Shown piece by piece: positions 1,074 to 63,825 of a stretch of 64,000 nucleotides of DNA. Made by a program: the position numbers and the translations under genes. The DNA is from a virus: positions 8,382-72,381 of the IMG/VR virus record IMGVR_UViG_3300035698_013740; one strand, 5' to 3'. Numbering within the stretch: the first letter of the stretch is position 1; each line of letters starts with the position of its first letter. Below the pieces are notes generated by a model, which had not been told where the DNA came from, made no database searches, and was given only the letters and a program-made list of their open reading frames with translations.

Positions 1074-4000
1074 CAGACATAAAACATTTTCAAATAATGT
1101 AGCACATGAATTTAAGAGAAGAGAAAACGATTTTGGAGTCTCTAAACAATCTAGTACCTCCCAGGCTACACTGGCTTCACCAATAAATGATGAGCAAGAT
1201 AACAAATGGAATGGTACTGGAGGTCGTACTGTATGGTCTAGAGTGTCTTCAGGAGTAATTGGTTATAGACGAGACGATTCCAATAACAGGGAATCTCTAG
1301 AAAAGAGTTCTATTGACAGTTTGGGTGGAATAAAAACAATATCTACTAGAATTGATGGAGATCCAAAAGAAAATGAAATAAACGGAATAGTATTAGAAAC
1401 CAATTATAAAGCAGAAGACATGTATGGAATTAACCCATATCCTGGATTCAGATCTATTGCAAAGGTTTTATTTAATAAAGATTCTACATCAAATCTGCTA
1501 AACAGCAACAACAATCTTCAAATATTCTCAGATAGAGGACAGCCTGGTCCAGTTTTAGAATCAATTTCTATAAATCACCAAGGATCTTGGGGAATGATTA
1601 AAGAAGCAGACGTTACATGGAGAGCATTTAGCCAAGAACAGTTTGAAACGCTTTCTCATTTTTTATGTAATGTTCAAAAAACAGTAGTTGTGGAGTATGG
1701 TTGGTCTTCACACAGGAAGCCTACACTAGATCTAAGCGATATAGAAAAGGTGAAATACCTTCAGTCTAACCAAATTATGGCCTTAGTTAAAAAGGATAAT
1801 GAAAATTTTTATGAATCTGAAAAACAATTTATTGAATCATCTAGGCAGCTAGGAACTGCATCTCAAAATAACAATGATTTAGATTTTGAATCACTTACTC
1901 CATACGAAATAGAACAGGAGCGAAGAGGAGCAGATTACGATGTGTTTATTGGAATCATAAAAAACTTTGTCGTTCAAATAGAAGATGGTGCGTACGTTGT
2001 TACTACAAAATTGGTTTCTATGTCTCCTGCAGTTATTTCTTCTAGAAATTCAATTAATAACTATTTTGAAACTAGGTTTAATACAGATATAGATCACCTT
2101 AGATTAAATAAGGATCCTAGAGTTTGGTATAAACCATCTAGTTTAATTTCACCGACGTTTTCTAGCAATTCAGATGCTACTGTTCAAGAAGAAATAACTC
2201 AAACTGATTTATCAAAGATAGAAGATTTTTGGAAAATAATGAGAAATCCAGAAGGTCATATTTTCTATAACAAGTCTAGGGCAGTTTTTGAATTGCAGCC
2301 AGAAAACAGATTTCGTTCTACAGGATTAGAAGATCATAGGTGGCACTTATACACCCCAGAATTTATTACAGATTTACAATATGTAACTGATTTAGAATTG
2401 AAACGCGCATTGATTAGGGGTGGAAAATTATTAAAGAATTGGAAGCAAGTGGAGCCTGATGTTGTAAACCCAGATGGAGTTACCATTGGACTTATCTTTG
2501 GAGCAGTATTGGGTGGAATTGCTGGAGGCCCAGGTGGAGTTCTCATAGGTGGTGGAATTGGAGCAGCAACAGGTGAAGCAATGTCTACCTTTGCTAAGGA
2601 AATAGATAATTCCTTTGATGAAAGAAATTGGCAAGATATTAGGATATTTATTCAAAAAATAGCAGAATTATCAGGAGTAAGCATAACTGGTAAATTGCTA
2701 GAAGTATTTTCTAGACGATACCCTGCACCCATATTACATTTTGATTATCCAGAAATAGATCCATATAAATGGCTGGATCCATTAATGGATCAAATTAGAT
2801 ATGTATTAGAACGGCAGCATAGGCAGTATCTAGGTATGAGTAAAATACCACCATTTATTCCAGGTGCGATAGATGAGCCACAAGATAAAGGAAAGTTAGA
2901 ATACGATATTAATTTTGGAGATCCAACATACAATACAGTTGGCAATAGGGGATCTATAATTGAAAAGGTATACAATTACATTAAAGTTCATTTAAGTGAA
3001 AACTCATCTGGACGCGCATACTTAGATAATGGCATTCAGTTTGGAACAGATTTTGCGTTCAATGCAGTTAGGGATGTATTTAACCCGTTTACTGATTATA
3101 GATCTCCTAGATTAGATTTACGAGGTGGTAAAGGAAAAGGAATTGGATCTGATAGAGAAACTGAAATAACATTAGCAAGATTTGCAGCAATTCAACATCA
3201 TCTAGGAACAATAGATGCACCTAACGTAGATATTGGAAACGATAGCACATTTTCTCTGTTATCTAGAGACAAAAAACTAGAACGCCATTCATATTCCTTC
3301 ATTACTTGGGGATTATTAGAAGAACTGCTAAACGCTCAGTTTGTTTCTAAAACTTCTAAATTTTTAAAATTAGATTCAAGCACAACAAAAATCAGATTTC
3401 ATGAAAATTTAATTTCAACTGATGGTGATGTGTGTATACTTCCAAATAAAAACGCACCAAGATTTGATAAGGGAATATTAGTAGATGGGTCTAGATACGA
3501 TTTATCTATAAATGGAATTTCACATAGAGACGTAGGAAACGACACATCTGGAAAACTAGAAGAAGATGAAGCTTGGTTGTATTCAATATTTGTTAGTACG
3601 GATTTGATTAAATCTGTATTTGGAAAAACAGAAACAATGAAGGATGCATTAAGGGAACTCTTAGATTATATTAGCGGAGCACTAATAGACAACTATGAAT
3701 TTAGAATAGATCAGAGAGGATCTACTGCAAGTGTTGTAGATGTTGCGTATTCTAAATACGATAGCTCTACTGAGCGATATAGATTTAAATTCAATCAAGC
3801 CACATCTTTTATTAGAAATATTGATTCCGATATAAGTCACACTACACAAACGCAAATGCAAGCGATTTACGGAATGCATAGTGATAAAGATAACAACATA
3901 TATGGTCCTTTCGAATCTAGCATCACCCCAATTGTCTCCAAGGGTAAGGATAACTTAGATCTATTTGCACAAGATTTAATTGAAAGCGATGAATCTGATA

Positions 4001-6168: not shown

Positions 6169-6798
6169 ATGAAATACGACGCATATTTTAGCGCTGCTTT
6201 ATCAACTACTACATTTTTGGCTAAAGTAGGGTTTGAGCCAGTAGATTTATCTAAGAGTATCCATAGAGACGCTCTTAAGGAATCTCTCAAAGAAATTGGT
6301 ACTCCTGATGATGTAATATACGAATTGATTCAAAACGTATTAGATCTGCTATACGAAGATGAAGATAAGGGAAGCGGTAGTGCTAGAGCACAACGAGATA
6401 AATTAGGACTTAAGCACATTGCATATGGTTTTTATTCTAAATCTGGAAAACAACCAGTTGAATTTAAGCGTGATGGTGATAAGTTTGTACAATCCAACGA
6501 TTCAGAATATGAAAAAATTGCAAATGATCGTGGTGAAGATGGTAAGGATAGTGCTCCAGTTAAACAAGATTCTACACCCAACGATTCTACACCTTCTACC
6601 GATAATGTTTCTACAGGCGAAGACGGAGAAGGTGAAGAGCAACCCCCAAATATTGTAGCAACACCACGCCCTGGAAATAGTAAAGAAGCAAAACGAGCAG
6701 CTGCATATGGATCAGTTGCAGCTGAGCTAGCAGTTAAGTACGTTGAAGATACAAAAGAACGTGAAAAACTAGAAGCAGAAGACAAAGAAGGTTTATAA
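6169..6798 (+). CDS. Hypothetical protein with acidic low-complexity C-terminus
   Basis: 209-aa ORF, same strand as neighbours. Confidence 0.65.
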   Translation: MKYDAYFSAALSTTTFLAKVGFEPVDLSKSIHRDALKESLKEIGTPDDVIYELIQNVLDLLYEDEDKGSGSARAQRDKLGLKHIAYGFYSKSGKQPVEFKRDGDKFVQSNDSEYEKIANDRGEDGKDSAPVKQDSTPNDSTPSTDNVSTGEDGEGEEQPPNIVATPRPGNSKEAKRAAAYGSVAAELAVKYVEDTKEREKLEAEDKEGL

Positions 6799-6812
6799 CT
6801 CCTTTCGAGATG

Positions 6813-6840
6813 TTGTTGTGTATTTATATGTACACAACAA
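6813..6840 (+). promoter_or_regulatory. Perfect 10-bp hairpin overlapping a TATTTATA motif, upstream of the GIY-YIG ORF
   Basis: TTGTTGTGTA (6813-6822) / TACACAACAA (6831-6840); TATTTATA at 6821-6828. Confidence 0.55.
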
Positions 6841-6852
6841 ATTTAGGAGACT

Positions 6853-7128
6853 ACGATCAAAAGCCAGTTTCAAATTTACAAAACTACAAATGTAGTTAAT
6901 GGTAAACAATATATAGGACTATCTGCACAAGGTAATAAAAATTATTTTGGATCAGGTAGATTAATAGAAAAGGCAATACGGAAATACGGTAAATCTTCAT
7001 TTACAAAAGAAATTTTAGATGAAACTACTGATGAAGTATATGCCAATGAATTAGAAAGACACTACATTGAAAGTCATAATGCTATAAAAAGATGGCATTT
7101 TGATAATTGTAAGTGGAGACGTAATTGA
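6853..7128 (+). pseudogene. Minimal/degenerate GIY-YIG (Seg-like) homing endonuclease without canonical start codon
   Basis: Translates as (T)IKSQFQIYKTTNVVNGKQYIGLS..NYFGSGRLIEKAIRKYGKSSFTKEILD..NELERHYI..KRWHFDNCKWRRN*; begins ACG/ATC after an in-frame TAG at 6844; absent from the ORF track. Confidence 0.75.
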
Positions 7129-47662: not shown

Positions 47663-48172
47663 ATGAATATCGCTAGAAAGCATACATTGGTTTTAAACAG
47701 TACTGGAATTCCTATTATGATTATGGATTCTAGGCGGGCGTTTAAAAACGTATATACTGACGCAGTGTACCTTGTTAGCAATTACACTGGAGAATTCTTT
47801 AGATCAACCAATGAATCATTTGGAGTTCCTTCAGTTATTAGATCTAAGAGATTTGTAAAGCTACCATTCAAAAAGGCAACACGCACTAAAGAAAATGTCT
47901 TCAAAAGAGATAAATACGAATGTGTGTATTGTGGTGATGGCAATAAAAAGCATCTTACAATCGATCATGTGCTTCCAAAGTCCAGAGGTGGTAAAAGTTC
48001 TTGGACCAACGAAGTGACATGTTGCTTTAGTTGTAATAATAAAAAGGATAATAAGACTCCTGCAGAAATGGGATGGAAAGATCCAAATCCACAGCATCCC
48101 CATTACTTAATTCTTATGAATTCATTCGTTAAAAACGTTCCTAATGATTGGGAACCATATCTATTTATGTAA
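47663..48172 (+). CDS. HNH endonuclease
   Basis: LVLN, VPSVIR, RDKYECVYCG, TIDHVLPKSRGG..W.N..C..CNNKK. Confidence 0.9.
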   Translation: MNIARKHTLVLNSTGIPIMIMDSRRAFKNVYTDAVYLVSNYTGEFFRSTNESFGVPSVIRSKRFVKLPFKKATRTKENVFKRDKYECVYCGDGNKKHLTIDHVLPKSRGGKSSWTNEVTCCFSCNNKKDNKTPAEMGWKDPNPQHPHYLILMNSFVKNVPNDWEPYLFM

Positions 48173-48334: not shown

Positions 48335-48405
48335 GGGTCAATGGCCGAACGGTTAGGCACGGGGTTGCAAACCTCGGTATGTGAGTTCGAATCTCTCTTG
48401 GCTCT
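48335..48405 (+). tRNA. tRNA-Cys(GCA)
   Basis: GGGTCAA/TTGGCTC acceptor, loop TTGCAAA, U73. Confidence 0.85.
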
Positions 48406-49566: not shown

Positions 49567-49607
49567 GATGTGATATTTATCTGTACACTTAAAATAGGAT
49601 AAATGTT

Positions 49608-50798
49608 ATGTCTGTAAATATTAAATTTGATGGTGAAGGTACTGGCACCAAAAAAGATCCATTCAAAATTCCAGTAGTACCATTGGTAAAAACCAAACTT
49701 AAACCACTATACTTAGAAATTGAAGTACTGTCTTCACATGGTGGCAATACAACGCCAGAACTATATAACGTTGGGTTTAGAACTGAACAGTGGATTGCAG
49801 TAGGTGGTTCTGTTAAGGAATCTATTACTGGTGGCATTAAGATGAGAGTTCCATTATATGCTAGGAATGATTTTCAAGATAAGCCTGAAAAGATTTATAT
49901 GGCTGCATTTAAGTATGCATCTAAGACACCAGCAGGACAATTTGTAAATGCATACAGGCTCTTAGATCCAAATTTTACATCTGAGGATGGTTGGAGTGGT
50001 AACGACTATTGGGCAATTTCATATACGGCTGAAGAAATGGTCGAGTATGCTAAATTGTTTGAAACACCAAAGGCAGAATTGCCAATTACTATTAAAGGAA
50101 CGTTAGATCTTCCACAAGTAGATGAAGTAGTAGAACTGCAATCTAAAGAATTATCTGAAGTGGAAGATATGCTTATTGCTCTAGAAAAACGAGTATCATC
50201 TCTAGAAGGTGGTGTTAAAGCTGAACCGGTAGATATGCTTATTGCTCTAGAAAAACGAGTATCATCTCTAGAAGGTGGTGTTAAAGCTGAACCGGTAGAA
50301 GTTGTAGTAGAACCTATTGCTGATGTATATGTTGAAGAAAATGTAGATGGTATTAATTTCTCAGTTGATCATGAATGGATAGATGAAAACACATTTATTT
50401 TGAATTTGAAACTTGATAATGTAGATGAATACGAAGGATTTGCAAACTTTCAATTTGATGTGCCATTTATCAATGGTACTAATTTTGTAGATACTATTGC
50501 AGAAGGAACTTATTTTGATAATACTCCAGCAAATGATGGAACATTTGATGAGGCAAAGGTAATTAGTGGATGGACTTGGCGAGCGTTTAGAAATGATAAC
50601 TTACAAAAGATCAGAGTGTCTGGTTTTGCATCATCTCTAAGTACAATTTATGATGATGGAACTTTAGTAAGAATGAAATATGACGTAACTGATTCAGCTG
50701 CTGAAAATTTTACATTTTTCTTTAATACTGTTAGATTAAATGGGTTAAGGACTCCAGTTAACCCAAAAAATCCAAGATACATTGTAACTAAAGATTAA
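49608..50798 (+). CDS. Hypothetical protein with coiled-coil linker and C-terminal cohesin-like beta-sandwich
   Basis: LNLKLDN..FANFQFDV..IRVSGF..GTLVRMKYDV resembles cohesin/CBM folds. Confidence 0.55.
   Translation: MSVNIKFDGEGTGTKKDPFKIPVVPLVKTKLKPLYLEIEVLSSHGGNTTPELYNVGFRTEQWIAVGGSVKESITGGIKMRVPLYARNDFQDKPEKIYMAAFKYASKTPAGQFVNAYRLLDPNFTSEDGWSGNDYWAISYTAEEMVEYAKLFETPKAELPITIKGTLDLPQVDEVVELQSKELSEVEDMLIALEKRVSSLEGGVKAEPVDMLIALEKRVSSLEGGVKAEPVEVVVEPIADVYVEENVDGINFSVDHEWIDENTFILNLKLDNVDEYEGFANFQFDVPFINGTNFVDTIAEGTYFDNTPANDGTFDEAKVISGWTWRAFRNDNLQKIRVSGFASSLSTIYDDGTLVRMKYDVTDSAAENFTFFFNTVRLNGLRTPVNPKNPRYIVTKD
50165..50299 (+). repeat. Perfect 66-bp in-frame tandem duplication
   Basis: Encodes DMLIALEKRVSSLEGGVKAEPV twice with identical DNA. 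Confidence 0.92.
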
Positions 50799-50859
50799 AA
50801 AAAAAGAATTTTTAGGAACATTGAAACAAAAAGAAACAGTTAGAGTATATTTAAACATA

Positions 50860-50970
50860 ATGACGAAGCAAAGACAACATATAAAACGATTTTGGTATAT
50901 AGATACGAACCCGAATAGGGATCCGCTATCTCACCAATCTATATGTTCAATCCTGGATACGGAATTGTAA
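50860..50970 (+). CDS. Candidate attenuator leader peptide (36 aa)
   Basis: MTKQRQHIKRFWYIDTNPNRDPLSHQSICSILDTEL*; contains sequence complementary to the downstream terminator. Confidence 0.65.
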   Translation: MTKQRQHIKRFWYIDTNPNRDPLSHQSICSILDTEL

Positions 50971-51004
50971 CGTTCATATATGGATATAAAACCATTAGGT
51001 TTTG

Positions 51005-51042
51005 GAGAGATAGGATTTTAGAATCTTATCTCTCTTTTTTTT
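51005..51042 (+). terminator. Strong intrinsic terminator (candidate attenuator 3:4 helix)
   Basis: GAGAGATAGGATT-ttag-AATCTTATCTCTC then T8. Confidence 0.85.
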
Positions 51043-51149
51043 GTTTTGCTGTTTCTTTATGAAACTTTTTGAAATATATTTAGTACTAGCTCATCTAGGA
51101 AACTAGAAAAAATGAGCAATTGTTTTTTGACTTATTGATATTACCAAAT

Positions 51150-51214
51150 GTGGGAGTAGCTTAATTTGTAAAGCATACTTAACGTAGTTGTAGATTCGAA
51201 TCCTACCTCCTGCA
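51150..51214 (+). ncRNA. tRNA-like RNA with shrunken anticodon arm
   Basis: GTGGGAG/CTCCTGC acceptor, D arm, TTCGAAT T-loop; anticodon arm only TAC-TTAAC-GTA. Confidence 0.6.
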
Positions 51215-51283
51215 CAAAAGAGTGGTAACCTTATACACGGGGTTGTAAGTAGATTATCGAAGAGATAAGTCTCACCATTATAT

Positions 51284-51358
51284 CTGGATATAGCGCAGTT
51301 CGGTCGTCGCACTTGATTTGGGATCAAGGACACGGGGGTTCAAATCCCTCTATCCAGA
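51284..51358 (+). tRNA. tRNA-Pro(TGG)
   Basis: CTGGATA/TATCCAG; CTTGA-TTTGGGA-TCAAG. Confidence 0.88.
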
Positions 51359-51361
51359 CAA

Positions 51362-51453
51362 TAGGGAAGGAGCATTGAAGTGACTAGCATGATGTTTGAG
51401 GAAGGGGTCGCAACCTAACTGAGTCAAGGAGAGTGAAAGACCTCCCTTTCCCT
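51362..51453 (+). ncRNA. Structured tRNA-like RNA of unknown identity
   Basis: TAGGGAAG/CTTTCCCTA terminal stem, TGACT/AGTCA, GGT-CGCA-ACC, T-arm-like GGAG..GTGAAAG..CTCC. Confidence 0.5.
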
Positions 51454-51462
51454 AAGTTTAAT

Positions 51463-51535
51463 CGAGAATTGGCGCAGCTGGTAGCGTACTCCGTCTGGAG
51501 CGGAGGGGTCGTGGGTTCGAGTCCCACATTCTCGA
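51463..51535 (+). tRNA. tRNA-Pro(TGG), second copy with C33
   Basis: CGAGAAT/ATTCTCG; CTCCG-TCTGGAG-CGGAG. Confidence 0.85.
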
Positions 51536-51542
51536 CTAAGAT

Positions 51543-51614
51543 GCTTCTGTGGCAGAGAGGATATGCAACGGTTTTCTAAGCCGTACCACGTGGGTTCGAA
51601 TCCTATCAGGAGTA
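51543..51614 (+). tRNA. tRNA-Arg(TCT)
   Basis: ACGGT-TTTCTAA-GCCGT; A20 present. Confidence 0.85.
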
Positions 51615-51620
51615 CAACAT

Positions 51621-51694
51621 ATGCCATTAGCACGGTCTGGTAGTGCAGCTGTCTTATATGCAGTTGGTCACAGGTTCAAATCCTGTATGGTATA
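51621..51694 (+). tRNA. tRNA-Ile(TAT)
   Basis: ATGCCAT/ATGGTAT; GCTGT-CTTATAT-GCAGT; A73. Confidence 0.82.
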
Positions 51695-51698
51695 CACT

Positions 51699-51770
51699 GG
51701 GCCTGTAGCTCAAAGGTAGAGCACCCCGCTCATAACGGGACGGTTGAGTGTTCAATCCACTCCAGGCCCA
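51699..51770 (+). tRNA. tRNA with CAT anticodon (elongator Met or Ile2)
   Basis: GGGCCTG/CAGGCCC; loop CTCATAA. Confidence 0.85.
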
Positions 51771-51784
51771 CAAAAAATTCACAG

Positions 51785-51945
51785 CGATGCGATTATAGTT
51801 CCCAATGAGTTCGAAATCGTAGTGACGAGGGAAATAGTACATCGCCTTCATCGTAACAAAAGGATGCCACTTACATTATCTTAGGATAAATAAAGACGGT
51901 ACTAACTTGCAGGCCATTACCAGAGCCGAAAGATTTAAATCTGGT
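51785..51945 (+). ncRNA. Candidate structured ncRNA inside tRNA array
   Basis: GCGATG/CATCGC, TTCCC/GGGAA, TCGT-AGTG-ACGA, CCAGA/TCTGG stems; no credible ORF. Confidence 0.4.
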
Positions 51946-51950
51946 TTTAT

Positions 51951-52033
51951 CTAGATGTTGGACAATTGGATGGTCCACCTGACTGTAAATCAGACGCTTA
52001 ATCGCCGTGTAGGTTCGAATCCTTCCATCTGGA
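51951..52033 (+). tRNA. tRNA-Tyr(GTA) with C1:G72
   Basis: CTAGATG/CATCTGG; loop CTGTAAA; long variable region. Confidence 0.82.
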
Positions 52034-52061
52034 CAAGGCTTTAGGAAACTAAAGTTTACAT

Positions 52062-52150
52062 TTATCCGTAGCTCAGTCTGGTCAGAGCGCGACGCCGTTA
52101 ACGTCGAGGCCCTTATAAGGTTTACATAGGTTCAAATCCTATCGGGTAAT
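52062..52150 (+). tRNA. tRNA-Asn(GTT) with long variable arm
   Basis: TTATCCG/CGGGTAA; CGACG-CCGTTAA-CGTCG; AGGCC-CTTATAA-GGTTT extra arm. Confidence 0.75.
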
Positions 52151-52155
52151 CAAAT

Positions 52156-52274
52156 GTGCAGGTGGCGGAACGGGTAGACGCTAGGGACATACGTCCTGAG
52201 AAGTTTAGGTATAATACACATAGTATGGTTAATACTTGTAAATCTTCGTAGAGGTTCGAATCCTTCACTGCACA
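52156..52274 (+). ncRNA. tRNA-like RNA: class II-type D arm, 4-nt anticodon loop, very long variable arm
   Basis: GTGCAG/CTGCAC; TGGCGGAACGGGTAGACGC; GGGAC-ATAC-GTCCT; about 48-nt arm; GTTCGAATCC. Confidence 0.65.
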
Positions 52275-52280
52275 CAACAT

Positions 52281-52354
52281 GGAACTCTAGTGTAAACTGG
52301 TGAGCATGTGAGTCTGAAAAGCTCATGGTTTGGGTTCGATTCCCAGGGGTTCTA
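52281..52354 (+). tRNA. tRNA-Phe(GAA)
   Basis: TGAGT-CTGAAAA-GCTCA. Confidence 0.85.
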
Positions 52355-52379
52355 CAAAACAAAAATGATGGTATAGTAA

Positions 52380-52853
52380 ATGATAGAAGGATTAACATTA
52401 GAAGAGCAGGCAACGAATCATGAAACATGGAGACATATTCATAGAGTTCAATATTATCTGTTAAACGTAGTAGCTAATTTACAAAAGAGATTACATATTC
52501 ATGATCAATCTAAATTGGCAGAACCTGAAGTACAACTTTTTACTGAATATACTGATAAGCTAAGGGATGTTACATACGGATCTGAAGAATACAAATCGTT
52601 TTTAAGTGGATTGAAACCTGCATTAGATCATCACTATGCAAATAACAGACACCATCCAGAACATTGGAAAAATGGTGTAGAAGATATGACTCTTCTAGAT
52701 TTGATTGAAATGATTTGTGATTGGAAAGCTGCAAGTGAGAGACACAATGATGGTAACATTCGTAAAAGTATTGAACTTAATACTGAACGATTCAATATGA
52801 GTCCTCAACTCAGAAGAATTTTTGAAAACACAGTAGACGAAATACTGATATAA
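52380..52853 (+). CDS. DUF5662-like HD-fold protein
   Basis: H..HDQSKL..E..HHYANNRHHPEH..EMICDWKAA. Confidence 0.75.
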   Translation: MIEGLTLEEQATNHETWRHIHRVQYYLLNVVANLQKRLHIHDQSKLAEPEVQLFTEYTDKLRDVTYGSEEYKSFLSGLKPALDHHYANNRHHPEHWKNGVEDMTLLDLIEMICDWKAASERHNDGNIRKSIELNTERFNMSPQLRRIFENTVDEILI

Positions 52854-53311: not shown

Positions 53312-53387
53312 GTGGCCGTAGCTTAATTGGTAAAGCGCTAGATTGTGGCTCTAGTACATACGGGTTCAAGTCCCGTCGGTCACCCCA
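53312..53387 (+). tRNA. tRNA-His(GTG), second copy, no encoded G-1
   Basis: GTGGCCG/CGGTCAC-C-CCA; CTAGA-TTGTGGC-TCTAG. Confidence 0.88.
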
Positions 53388-63265: not shown

Positions 63266-63491
63266 AACTTTAATCATAATAGAAGCATCTGGTATGATCA
63301 AAGATCTTAAGGATTTACCAAATGTTTCAAATAAGCATATTAGATCATTAACGGATCCTGAATTTGGAACTGTAAGACATTATGTGAATTACGCGTTTTT
63401 TGAAAATATGAATAATACTGACCTTAAAAAATATTTAGCAAAGGTGGAAACAAAACATCCGTTAGTTATATTTAAGAGAAAGGAAAGTTAA
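63213..63491 (+). CDS. Hypothetical protein
   Basis: 92-aa ORF. Confidence 0.5.
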   Translation: MKPTINPKDLPHRGKTLKTLIIIEASGMIKDLKDLPNVSNKHIRSLTDPEFGTVRHYVNYAFFENMNNTDLKKYLAKVETKHPLVIFKRKES

Positions 63492-63496
63492 TTTAT

Positions 63497-63570: not shown

Positions 63571-63748
63571 CCCCATAGACTATTTTGTACTTCGATATAC
63601 TATTAGTATAACGAAGAAACAAAAACACTACTGAATAGCTCCAGATACGCGGAAACAAAAGGCTTTCAGAAACCCATAAGGTTGCGACCTTACGGATAAG
63701 TCCAATGCAAGTATGCGCATACAAACATTGGCAAAATTTATTATTTAT

Positions 63749-63825
63749 GCCCGATTAGCCAAGAATAGGACTAAGGCATCTGTTTTACATGCAGACAATC
63801 ACAGGTTCGAATCCTATATCGGGTA
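63749..63825 (+). tRNA. tRNA-Val(TAC)
   Basis: GCCCGAT/ATCGGGT; TCTGT-TTTACAT-GCAGA. Confidence 0.85.

What the first reader, a model, noticed from the sequence alone, without database searches (positions are those of the whole stretch)
50845..51042. Candidate ribosome-sensing attenuator gating the phage tRNA array (codon-sampler leader peptide)
Seen: a 36-codon ORF (50860-50970) sits just before a 13-bp terminator with T8, and the main tRNA array starts ~110 nt later. Segment 2 (CTATCTCACCAA, 50926-50937) pairs 11/12 with segment 3 (TTGGAGAGATAG, 51002-51013), which overlaps the terminator's 5' arm. Segment 2 can alternatively pair with segment 1 (TTGGTATATAG, 50892-50902, codons F-W-Y-I). 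Established: this is the 1:2 / 2:3 / 3:4 layout of trp/his-type attenuators. Unlike those, the leader has no run of one amino acid. Its first 20 codons (ATG ACG AAG CAA AGA CAA CAT ATA AAA CGA TTT TGG TAT ATA GAT ACG AAC CCG AAT AGG) cover 13 amino acids, both Lys codons and three Arg codons. Apart from the start codon, each matches a tRNA in this array, including the unusual Thr(CGT), Ile(TAT) and Arg(TCG). Ala and Gly are absent from both the leader and the visible array. Inference: stalling caused by loss of almost any host tRNA (e.g. anticodon-nuclease defence or starvation) would switch on the phage tRNAs. Caveat: a promoter-like TATATTTAG near 51075 could drive the array independently.
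Basis: partly seen in the sequence, partly recalled or inferred. Interest (0 to 1): 0.9.

Follow-up and report, generated by a model that had tools for sequence, protein, structure and literature searches.

The report
Switchable terminator before phage tRNA genes
A short reading frame and a strong transcription stop with a built-in alternative RNA pairing sit in front of a phage's tRNA genes, and a distant relative keeps the same layout, so it is probably a switch that ties tRNA gene transcription to how well ribosomes are working, although the proposed 'codon sampler' detail is not borne out.

Summary
A 36-codon ORF (50860-50970), a 14-bp/T8 intrinsic terminator (51004-51042) and an 11/12 complement (50926-50937) to the terminator's 5' arm lie 108 nt before the first tRNA-like gene.

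The only relative I could retrieve is L113, a metagenome contig whose neighbouring protein is 38% identical. It keeps a homologous non-coding module before its first tRNA block:
- a promoter-like box;
- a 40-codon ORF ending at the same TAA inside a shared 12-mer;
- a different terminator;
- a different, perfect 10-bp antiterminator complement (shuffle p 0.014).

Three unrelated large-phage loci show the same layout. Such a complement occurs in 3 of 4 terminators lying within 400 nt before tRNAs, against 1 of 66 others.

My best reading (0.4) is a conditional terminator, most likely coupled to translation.

- The 'codon sampler': amino-acid diversity is ordinary, the codon/tRNA match is not replicated in L113, and the array is cut by the contig end.
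- Exclusive 'gating': promoter-like boxes lie downstream of the terminator and a tRNA-Cys lies upstream.

There are no expression data. This scan has noted similar leader/terminator units before phage tRNA arrays on other DNA (unchecked AI notes). I found none in print.

The parts
50801..50881 (+). Promoter-like conserved block P1 (TTG 50821-50823; TTAGAGTATATTTA 50840-50853). It ends at or over the leader's ATG.
   Evidence: Local alignment with L113 2844-2920 beats 1000 of 1000 dinucleotide shuffles (first seen). The same 21-nt pattern lies in 27 IMG/VR stretches, many of them just before gene starts. Its function as a promoter is inferred.
50860..50970 (+). 36-codon leader ORF
   Evidence: It ends at the TAA inside the 12-mer shared with L113, whose 40-codon ORF (2976-3098) ends at the same TAA. 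The chance of an ATG-ORF of 36 or more codons ending there is 0.009 (window) and 0.018 (L113). The two peptides are not alike (p 0.385). There are no Pfam or PHROG hits. Translation has not been shown.
50892..50906 (+). Segment 1, a weak partner of segment 2
   Evidence: Paired with 50923-50937 in the minimum-energy folds. Duplex energy is -8.7 kcal/mol.
50926..50937 (+). Segment 2, the 5' strand of the antiterminator
   Evidence: 11/12 complementary to 51002-51013. It is present in the minimum-energy fold of the transcript cut before the terminator's 3' arm. Shuffle p is 0.034 and 0.017. A natural variant, C50932A, in one contig of run X4 weakens it.
50966..50977 (+). Conserved 12-mer TGTAACGTTCAT, holding the leader's stop codon
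   Evidence: Identical in L113 at 3094-3105, and in both about 57 nt before the terminator's T-run. Its function is unknown.
50988..51003 (+). Small hairpin directly before the terminator
   Evidence: Energy is -3.6 kcal/mol.
51002..51042 (+). Segment 3 (51002-51013), intrinsic terminator stem-loop (51004-51035) and T8 (51035-51042)
   Evidence: 14 pairs, loop 4, T8. Energy is -17.1 kcal/mol.
51075..51082 (+). Second promoter-like box P2 (TATATTTA), downstream of the terminator
   Evidence: L113 has TTGACT-17-TATGTT at 3204-3232 in the equivalent place. Its function is inferred.
51120..51137 (+). 18-mer TTGTTTTTTGACTTATTG, identical in L113, 12 nt before the first tRNA-like gene in both
   Evidence: 1 of 1000 shuffles reaches the alignment score. 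Its function is unknown.
51150..51214 (+). First, degenerate tRNA-like gene of the block. The regular tRNAs follow from 51284.
   Evidence: Rfam RF00005, 38.2 bits. Not called by ARAGORN.

Best explanation
The stretch 50801-51148 is a conserved control module at the head of a tRNA block.

Transcripts start at a promoter-like box just before the leader, or arrive from the upstream Pth2 and 396-aa genes. They then meet a strong intrinsic terminator. The terminator's 5' arm can instead pair with segment 2, which lies inside a 36-codon ORF.

In folds made before the 3' arm is transcribed, the 2:3 pairing is the preferred state. A ribosome sitting on segment 2 (codons 20-30) removes that pairing and frees the arm for termination. 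A ribosome held earlier (codons 10-18) strengthens it.

The most likely working is therefore a translation-coupled transcription attenuator. Smooth translation of the leader favours termination. Absent, slow or stalled translation favours read-through into the tRNA genes, which would give feedback between decoding capacity and tRNA supply.

Shown: the sequence elements, their conservation in L113, and the folding energetics.
Inferred: the promoter, translation of the ORF, coupling to RNA polymerase, and any effect on tRNA levels.
For: - Homology of the module with L113, although the phages are distant (396-aa protein 38% identical; Pth2 47%). Two local alignments are reached by 0 and 1 of 1000 dinucleotide shuffles, and by 1 of 180 other tiles of the window.
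- In L113 the terminator and its upstream complement have unrelated sequences, yet the complement is a perfect 10-mer (CCCGTATCCT with AGGATACGGG). It is reached by 14 of 1000 shuffles. The window's complement is reached by 34 of 1000.
- Both phages have an ATG-ORF of 36-40 codons ending at the same TAA, with unrelated peptides. This suggests that translation, not the peptide product, is what matters.
- In both phages the transcript cut before the 3' arm folds into the 2:3 helix, and footprints placed on segment 2 abolish it.
- Uniform scan of all held loci: of 70 distinct terminators, 3 of the 4 lying within 400 nt before a same-strand tRNA have a complement at p <= 0.05, against 1 of 66 others (Fisher 2.9e-4).
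- Adding L113, L107 and L088 and leaving out the window, 4 of 6 pre-tRNA terminators pass (combined p 3.4e-4).
- L050, L081 and L107 are unrelated in sequence. Each also carries a 40-46-codon ORF there, with the same footprint logic in L050 and L081.
- The 60 nt before the ATG are A-rich, like the starts of the phage's genes, which lack Shine-Dalgarno motifs.
Against: - There are no expression data: none of the 11 listed runs holding the stretch is RNA.
- At equilibrium the full-length RNA keeps the terminator by 9-12 kcal/mol whatever the footprint. The switch would have to be kinetic.
- The geometry differs between the homologues. The stop codon lies 7 nt after segment 2 in L113 and L050 but 31 nt after it in the window and L081. 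In the window a terminating ribosome therefore does not cover segment 2 (cost to free the arm 3.0, against 5.0 without a ribosome).
- Without any ribosome the 2:3 state is preferred. That is not the trp/his logic.
- The 1:2 helix is weak.
- If the promoter-like box is the start site, the ATG lies within about 0-4 nt of the 5' end.
- The only natural variant seen in the leader (C50932A, one contig, depth 4.8) breaks a 2:3 pair and lowers the cost of freeing the arm from 5.0 to 1.5 kcal/mol.
- Promoter-like boxes downstream of the terminator could drive the tRNAs independently.
- A complete 30-60-codon ORF lies near 27 of 66 control terminators, so an ORF as such is weak evidence.
- The recurrence rests on few cases. 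47 of the 52 tRNA-block starts examined had no terminator by my criteria, and none of 5 GenBank phage tRNA regions (62 tRNAs) had one.
Confidence: 0.4

Rival explanations
1. A self-contained short transcription unit. In this reading P1 makes a roughly 185-nt RNA (a small RNA or a tiny gene) that ends at a constitutive terminator. The same terminator also closes the upstream Pth2/396-aa operon. The tRNAs are transcribed from their own promoter (51075). The 2:3 complement is incidental, or is part of the RNA's final fold.
For: - A promoter-like box lies directly before a strong terminator 185 nt on, and a second box follows the terminator, in the window, L113 and L050.
- At equilibrium the terminator always wins.
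- The stretch folds well (z -3.45). L113 gives z -2.98, with 1 of 200 shuffles folding as well.
- A sub-threshold match to small-RNA models (HrrF, 33.8 bits against a gathering score of 77) reflects the hairpin-plus-terminator shape.
- Phage T4 carries small stable RNAs beside its tRNA genes (recalled, not checked here).
Against: - It does not explain why the complement to the terminator's 5' arm is kept in L113 with a different sequence.
- It does not explain why such complements are enriched at terminators before tRNAs.
- Apart from two short blocks there is no sequence conservation of the kind a trans-acting RNA usually shows.
- The peptides are not conserved.
Confidence: 0.3
2. A conditional terminator set by something other than the ribosome. 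Candidates are a phage or host RNA- or DNA-binding protein that recognises the conserved 12-mer TGTAACGTTCAT (core palindrome AACGTT) lying between segments 2 and 3, or an RNA partner such as a tRNA.
For: - The 12-mer is identical in two phages whose tRNA orthologues are only 55-89% identical.
- It lies inside the loop closed by the 2:3 helix in both.
- Bacterial tRNA arrays can be under protein control: the Anabaena trn array is induced by translational stress through the repressor TrcR (PMC8421152 and PMC10272220, abstracts read; passages on the site read).
Against: - No Rfam family, T-box included, matches at E <= 10 apart from sub-threshold small-RNA and miRNA models.
- L050, L081 and L107 share no such block.
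- The published TrcR site TGTAGTAT has no match with 1 mismatch or fewer in 50800-51150. It is also barely enriched in the window: 107 sites against 83.8 expected.
- There is no candidate binding protein.
Confidence: 0.15
3. The leader is a 'codon sampler' whose varied codons each match a phage tRNA, so that loss of almost any host tRNA (through an anticodon nuclease or starvation) stalls the ribosome and turns on the array.
For: - The first 23 codons all match anticodons of the visible array. Only 1 of 333 short ORFs, the leader itself, does this for 20 codons.
- Every tRNA species of the next block is represented at least once in the leader: window 7/7 (8.3% of 192 controls reach this) and 10/10 for two blocks (4.2%).
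- In L113 16 of 17 species are represented (2.4% of 41 own-locus controls, 0.5% of 3881 pooled controls).
- Pth2, a cyclic-phosphate receiver domain, a ligase and DUF5662 lie among the tRNAs.
Against: - Amino-acid diversity is ordinary.
- The number of matched codons is unremarkable in all five leaders. P(>=observed) is 0.27 for the window, 0.37-0.42 for L113, 0.70-0.83 for L050, 0.17-0.30 for L081 and 0.69-0.75 for L107.
- Species coverage is not significant in L050 or L107.
- The window's array is cut by the contig end.
- L113's leader contains Ala, Gly, Val and Glu.
- Only stalls at about codons 10-18 strengthen the antiterminator in the window. Stalls at codons 20-30 do the opposite.
Confidence: 0.1
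4. An ordinary gene-end terminator with a chance ORF and a chance complementarity. There is no regulation.
For: - Each single statistic for the window is modest (p 0.017-0.034) and was chosen after the fact.
- ORFs of this size are common in AT-rich DNA (P about 0.13 per 260-nt region).
Against: The layout and the homologous blocks recur in L113, before a different upstream gene. Independent tests there pass.
Confidence: 0.05

Closest known systems
Ribosome-mediated transcription attenuators that sense general slowing of translation, for example bmrB-bmrCD of Bacillus subtilis (PMC4191407; abstract and section list read)
   Same: A short leader ORF without a run of one amino acid, alternative stem-loops that include an intrinsic terminator, and read-through when translation of the leader is disturbed. 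A section heading of that paper says that rare codons affect the decision.
   Different: Here the element lies in a phage and stands before tRNA genes, not a transporter. Translation and regulation are untested. In bmrB the terminator lies inside the coding region. That is true here only of the second ORF (50943-51062) and of L107.
Classical leader-peptide attenuators of amino-acid operons (trpL, hisL, pheL; textbook knowledge; pheL in PMC3082878, listing only)
   Same: The 1:2 / 2:3 / 3:4 arrangement, with an intrinsic terminator and a short ORF covering segments 1 and 2.
   Different: There is no run of regulatory codons. The 1:2 helix is weak. The stop codon lies 31 nt past segment 2, so a terminating ribosome does not mask it. 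Without a ribosome the fold prefers 2:3. The downstream genes are tRNAs.
The inducible long tRNA array (trn operon) of Anabaena PCC 7120 (PMC8421152 and PMC10272220; abstracts read, and passages on the TrcR site)
   Same: A horizontally mobile tRNA array whose expression is tied to impairment of translation. The closest GenBank phage by DNA polymerase infects a cyanobacterium (Microcystis phage Mel-JY01, 46.6%).
   Different: Control there is by a DNA-binding repressor at the promoter, not by a terminator switch. No TrcR-type site lies here at 1 mismatch or fewer.
T-box leaders (tRNA-sensing antiterminators; Rfam)
   Same: Antiterminator/terminator competition linked to tRNA status.
   Different: No Rfam match at E <= 10 in the window or in L113. 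There is no conserved aptamer-like sequence across the five leaders.

Membership tests
Intrinsic (Rho-independent) terminator | G+C-containing stem-loop directly followed by a U-tract | tested here: met
   14-pair stem, loop 4, T8. Energy is -17.1 kcal/mol.
Leader-peptide attenuator (trp/his type) | Short ORF in the leader transcript, upstream of the terminator | tested here: met
   36 codons, 50860-50970. A positional counterpart in L113 ends at the same TAA. Translation itself cannot be tested here.
Leader-peptide attenuator (trp/his type) | Mutually exclusive antiterminator (2:3) and terminator (3:4) helices | tested here: met
   11/12 complement overlapping the 5' arm. It is present in the fold of the pre-terminator transcript and recurs in L113 with another sequence.
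Leader-peptide attenuator (trp/his type) | Run of codons for the amino acid that is sensed | tested here: not met
   No amino acid is repeated in tandem. Composition is ordinary.
Leader-peptide attenuator (trp/his type) | Anti-antiterminator (1:2) that holds segment 2 when the leader is not translated, and a stop codon placed so that a terminating ribosome masks segment 2 | tested here: not met
   1:2 is -8.7 against -12.3 for 2:3. Without a ribosome the fold prefers 2:3. The stop codon lies 31 nt after segment 2 in the window. The stop placement is met in L113 and L050, where it lies 7 nt after.
Leader-peptide attenuator (any type) | Read-through depends on translation of the leader | not testable with these tools
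   No RNA run holds the stretch. Reporter or Term-seq experiments are needed.
General translation-sensing attenuator (bmrB type) | Leader ORF without codon runs, several alternative stem-loops with a terminator, and response to impaired translation | tested here: inconclusive
   The structural features are present. The response could not be tested.
T-box / known riboswitch or leader families of Rfam | Match to the family's covariance model | tested here: not met
   Nothing in 50800-51149 at E <= 1. At E <= 10 there are only sub-threshold small-RNA and miRNA models. L113 gives the same result.

The most novel reading that the evidence does not exclude
Diverse large phages place a translation-sensing attenuator in front of blocks of their tRNA genes. 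It consists of an ORF of about 40 codons with a non-conserved peptide, an antiterminator inside the ORF and an intrinsic terminator. With it the phage would transcribe extra tRNAs only when ribosomes fail to run through the leader, for example after host tRNA cleavage or depletion. This would be a feedback loop between decoding capacity and tRNA supply that has not been described for tRNA genes.
Probability: 0.3. Interest if true: 0.85.

Novelty: new variant of a known kind. Interest (0 to 1): 0.6.

Why it matters
Phage tRNA arrays are now discussed mainly as counter-measures to tRNA-targeting defences and as codon supplements. How their expression is controlled is hardly known.

A terminator switch read by the ribosome would make tRNA supply self-adjusting. 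It would extend leader-peptide attenuation, known for amino-acid, synthetase and resistance genes, to tRNA genes themselves.

It can be tested directly with reporter fusions and end-mapping. The shared layout in unrelated phages offers several independent test cases.

If it proves to be only a small transcription unit with a constitutive terminator, the finding is ordinary.

Tried and rejected
- Close relatives. The 396-aa protein found no relative in IMG/VR, either alone or as a profile. It found none in GTDB genomes or in GenBank phages. Blastn of 49600-52400 against GenBank phages gave only tRNA pieces: 20 records, each covering 4% or less.
- Protein-library hits. That search gave 4 hits. 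Only P0004's contig was reached, through the metagenome scan (L113).
- DUF5662 and Pth2 anchors (31 and 80 loci). None holds a look-alike of the leader. Of 10 DUF5662 loci scanned, 9 had no tRNA.
- Pattern scans of IMG/VR, all without a further homologue:
  - the terminator 31-mer gave 0 hits;
  - the 12-mer plus T-run gave 61 hits, all unrelated contexts, about the chance number;
  - the 17-mer gave 10 hits, none near a tRNA;
  - the promoter-like pattern gave 27 hits. Only 1 locus has tRNAs, and those are on the other strand.
- Expression. No RNA holder was listed among the 11 runs. The laid contigs of 4 runs were near-identical, with one variant.
- Promoter type. The sigma-70 scan is at chance level (67 found, 70.4 expected). 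The Bacteroidota -7 box TAnnTTTG (PMC7641319, passages read) is not enriched outside ORFs (6 of 46 sites against 19% of the sequence). I therefore leave the promoter class and the host open.
- TrcR-type operator: rejected.
It does not flip the switch. Only the pre-terminator folds respond.
- Peptide look-ups. The 4 small ORFs are not in the protein collection and have no family (one Otopetrin match far below threshold).
- Generality. 47 of 52 tRNA-block starts had no terminator by my criteria. My finder also missed L113's bulged hairpin. 5 GenBank phage tRNA regions gave no pre-tRNA terminator.
- Papers. Searches (listings) showed no account of an attenuator before phage tRNA genes. Subscription papers and supplements were not seen.
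Full report
**What the window is**

The window is the last 64 kb of a 72,381-base IMG/VR virus record judged 34% complete. G+C is 34% and nearly all ORFs of 110 aa or more lie on the + strand. The DNA is held, nearly unchanged, by salt-lake metagenome runs.

By DNA polymerase the nearest GenBank phage is Microcystis phage Mel-JY01 (46.6%). T4-like phages come next at about 31%. Gene starts have A-rich upstream regions without Shine-Dalgarno motifs (58 starts listed).

From 48.3 kb to the contig end, 26 ARAGORN tRNAs plus two more seen only by Rfam (51150-51214 and 63749-63825) are interleaved with protein genes. These include PhoH, an HNH endonuclease, Pth2, DUF5662, a cyclic-phosphate receiver domain and an ATP-dependent ligase.

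**The observation**

- The 201-nt stretch folds better than all 200 shuffles (z -3.45).
- The first 23 codons match anticodons present in the window. Among 333 short ORFs only the leader itself has 20 of 20.

- The same octamer, TATATTTA, lies at 50846, ending 7 nt before the ATG.
- A tRNA-Cys lies upstream at 48335.
- The array is cut by the contig end.
- A second ORF (50943-51062, 39 aa) runs through the terminator.

**Relatives**

Close relatives are scarce. The 396-aa protein upstream has four relatives in the protein library. Only one contig could be reached, L113, where the protein is 38% identical.

In L113 the 396-aa homologue sits in the middle of a 30-tRNA array and has no leader after it. 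A homologous non-coding module does stand before L113's first tRNA block, behind an unrelated gene. The shared parts are:
- a promoter-like block (window 50801-50881, L113 2844-2920);
- the 12-mer TGTAACGTTCAT (50966, 3094), about 57 nt before the T-run of a terminator in both;
- the 18-mer TTGTTTTTTGACTTATTG (51120, 3331), 12 nt before a degenerate tRNA-like gene in both.

The two best local alignments are reached by 0 and 1 of 1000 dinucleotide shuffles, and by 1 of 180 other tiles of the window. The orthologous tRNAs are only 55-89% identical. The module therefore belongs to the tRNA block, not to the gene before it.

**Do the attenuator features recur in L113?**

Yes, for two of them, and these are tests made after the hypothesis was stated.

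- L113's terminator (about 3129-3167, -11.7 kcal/mol) has a different sequence. A perfect 10-mer complement to its 5' arm lies at 3080-3089, and 14 of 1000 shuffles do as well.
- L113 has a 40-codon ORF (2976-3098) that ends at the same TAA inside the shared 12-mer. An ATG-ORF of 36 or more codons ending there arises in 1.8% of shuffles, and in 0.9% in the window.

The two peptides are not alike (p 0.385). No family matches them.

The ORF starts are not homologous. The window's ATG abuts the promoter-like box, while L113's lies about 80 nt further on.

**Folding**

At equilibrium the complete leader keeps the terminator by 9-12 kcal/mol, whatever ribosome footprint is imposed.

Folds of the transcript as it exists before the 3' arm is made tell a different story. 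The 2:3 helix is the minimum-energy state in both phages. Cost of freeing the terminator arm in the window:

| State | Cost (kcal/mol) |
|---|---|
| No ribosome | 5.0 |
| A-site on codons 10-18 | 7.4-10.2 |
| A-site on codons 20-30 | 2.3 or less |
| Ribosome at the stop codon | 3.0 |

In L113 the helix is kept for codons 2-32 and lost for codons 34-41, which include the stop.

The logic that fits both phages is this: a ribosome on segment 2 gives termination, and a ribosome that is absent or held earlier gives read-through. This differs from trp/his in two ways. The 1:2 helix is weak (-8.7 against -12.3). In the window the stop codon lies 31 nt past segment 2.

**Is this layout special to tRNA blocks?**

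I scanned every held locus (about 1.9 Mb, both strands) with one procedure: a T-run of 6 or more, and a single hairpin of -9 kcal/mol or better. For each of the 70 distinct terminators found, I compared the best upstream complement to the 5' arm with 300 shuffles.

- Of 4 terminators lying within 400 nt before a same-strand tRNA, 3 reach p <= 0.05: L050 0.007, window 0.017 and L081 0.037. L100, at 0.47, in fact follows a 98-aa gene.
- Of the 66 others, 1 reaches p <= 0.05 (Fisher 2.9e-4).
- Adding the cases my finder missed (L113 0.014; L107 0.014 and L088 0.74) and leaving out the window, 4 of 6 pass (combined p 3.4e-4).

L050, L081 and L107 share no sequence with the window or with each other. 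Each has an ORF of 40-46 codons there. L050 and L081 show the same footprint logic. In L107 the ORF runs through the terminator.

Limits of this evidence:
- The numbers are small.
- 47 of 52 tRNA-block starts had no terminator by my criteria.
- Five GenBank phage tRNA regions with 62 tRNAs had none before a tRNA.
- Complete 30-60-codon ORFs lie near 27 of 66 control terminators, so the ORF alone says little.

**The 'codon sampler'**

- The leader's 17 distinct amino acids are reached by 16.5% of 103 control ORFs. L113's 18 are reached by 15% of 26.
- In L113, 34 of 40 leader codons match its array, against a control mean of 35.5; 83% of 41 controls do as well.
- Against the tRNA block that follows, the number of matched codons is unremarkable in all five leaders.
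- One weaker signal remains. Every tRNA species of the next block is represented at least once in the window (7/7, P 0.083; 10/10 for two blocks, P 0.042). The figures are 16/17 in L113 (P 0.024 own locus, 0.005 pooled) and 8/8 in L081 when two blocks are taken (P 0.03). L050 and L107 do not show it.

I read this as a hint, not as support. The absence of Ala and Gly from 'both leader and array' cannot be judged on a truncated array, and L113's leader holds Ala, Gly, Val and Glu.

**'Gating'**

The terminator cannot be the only gate. Promoter-like boxes lie between terminator and tRNAs in the window (51075), L113 (TTGACT-17-TATGTT, 3204-3232) and L050 (two TTGACA/TATAAT pairs). A further TATATTTA stands 29 nt before tRNA-Ile at 63496. 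Protein genes with their own starts interrupt the array.

Whether any of these boxes is a promoter is inferred. The sigma-70 scan is at chance and the Bacteroidota -7 box is not enriched outside ORFs. The pattern shared by the window and L113 does, however, recur before gene starts in other AT-rich phage contigs.

**Population data**

Four runs gave near-identical contigs. The single difference in the leader is C50932A, in one contig at depth 4.8. It changes His25 to Asn, breaks a 2:3 pair and lowers the cost of freeing the arm from 5.0 to 1.5 kcal/mol. It may be a sequencing error. If it is real, it speaks against tight selection on 2:3.

**Comparison with what is known**

The element works most like the ribosome-mediated attenuators that sense general slowing of translation, such as bmrB-bmrCD (PMC4191407, abstract). 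It is less like the trp/his type, whose defining codon run and stop placement it lacks.

It matches no Rfam family. The nearest thing in print for tRNA genes is the Anabaena trn array. That array is induced by translational stress but is controlled by the repressor TrcR (PMC8421152 and PMC10272220, abstracts). Its published site is not present here.

My paper searches (listings only) showed no attenuator before phage tRNA genes.

The scan's own notes describe similar leader/terminator units before tRNA arrays in other phages. They are unchecked AI notes and I do not count them as evidence. They did prompt the block-level codon tests.

**Verdict**

The general reading, a conditional terminator that is probably read by the ribosome and stands at the head of a tRNA block, is the best-supported explanation at about 0.4. 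A self-contained small transcription unit is the main rival, at about 0.3. The specific codon-sampler/anti-defence reading is at about 0.1.

Noticed in passing
window 51120-51137; L113 3331-3348: An 18-mer, TTGTTTTTTGACTTATTG, is identical in two phages whose orthologous tRNAs are only 55-89% identical. In each it lies after a small hairpin and 12 nt before a degenerate tRNA-like gene. Its function is unknown (a processing site, a weak second terminator, or a protein site). The 10 exact 17-mer hits in IMG/VR are all unrelated.
   Followed up: partly
window 51150-51214: A 65-nt tRNA-like gene is found by Rfam (38.2 bits) but not by ARAGORN. Its 5' part resembles tRNA-His at 53312. L113 has a counterpart at 3360-3437, plus an acceptor/T-arm minihelix at 3268-3312.
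   Followed up: partly
window 50943-51062: A second ORF of 39 codons starts inside the leader and runs through segment 3, the terminator and the T-run. L107 has a 44-codon ORF that spans its terminator in the same way.
   Followed up: no
L050 1141-1341; L081 minus strand (6700-6884 on the reverse complement); L107 8710-8822: Three unrelated large-phage contigs carry a 40-46-codon ORF, a complement to the terminator's 5' arm (p 0.004-0.037) and a terminator 34-298 nt before tRNA genes. In L050 a perfect TTGACA-17-TATAAT promoter precedes the ORF.
   Followed up: partly
window 49608-50798: The 396-aa protein of unknown function has a 22-residue tandem repeat. A near-identical protein (P0001) lacks one copy. 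Its homologue in L113 lies inside the tRNA array.
   Followed up: no
window 47663-48172: An HNH endonuclease gene lies directly before tRNA-Cys. A homing endonuclease in the T4 tRNA region is in print (PMC2330249, listing only). This could bear on the mosaic order of the tRNA regions in the window and L113.
   Followed up: no
window 51215-51283, 51360-51462, 63574-63748: Long spacers between tRNAs have extended self-complementary stretches, for example AGGGAAGGAG...CCTCCCTTTCCCT in 51360-51462. None matches an Rfam family at E <= 1.
   Followed up: no
window 63461-63475: The motif GTTAGTTATATTTAA resembles the box before the leader and lies 21-29 nt before tRNA-Ile(GAT) at 63496. On the + strand TATATTTA occurs only 4 times in 64 kb, all in the tRNA region.
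   Followed up: partly
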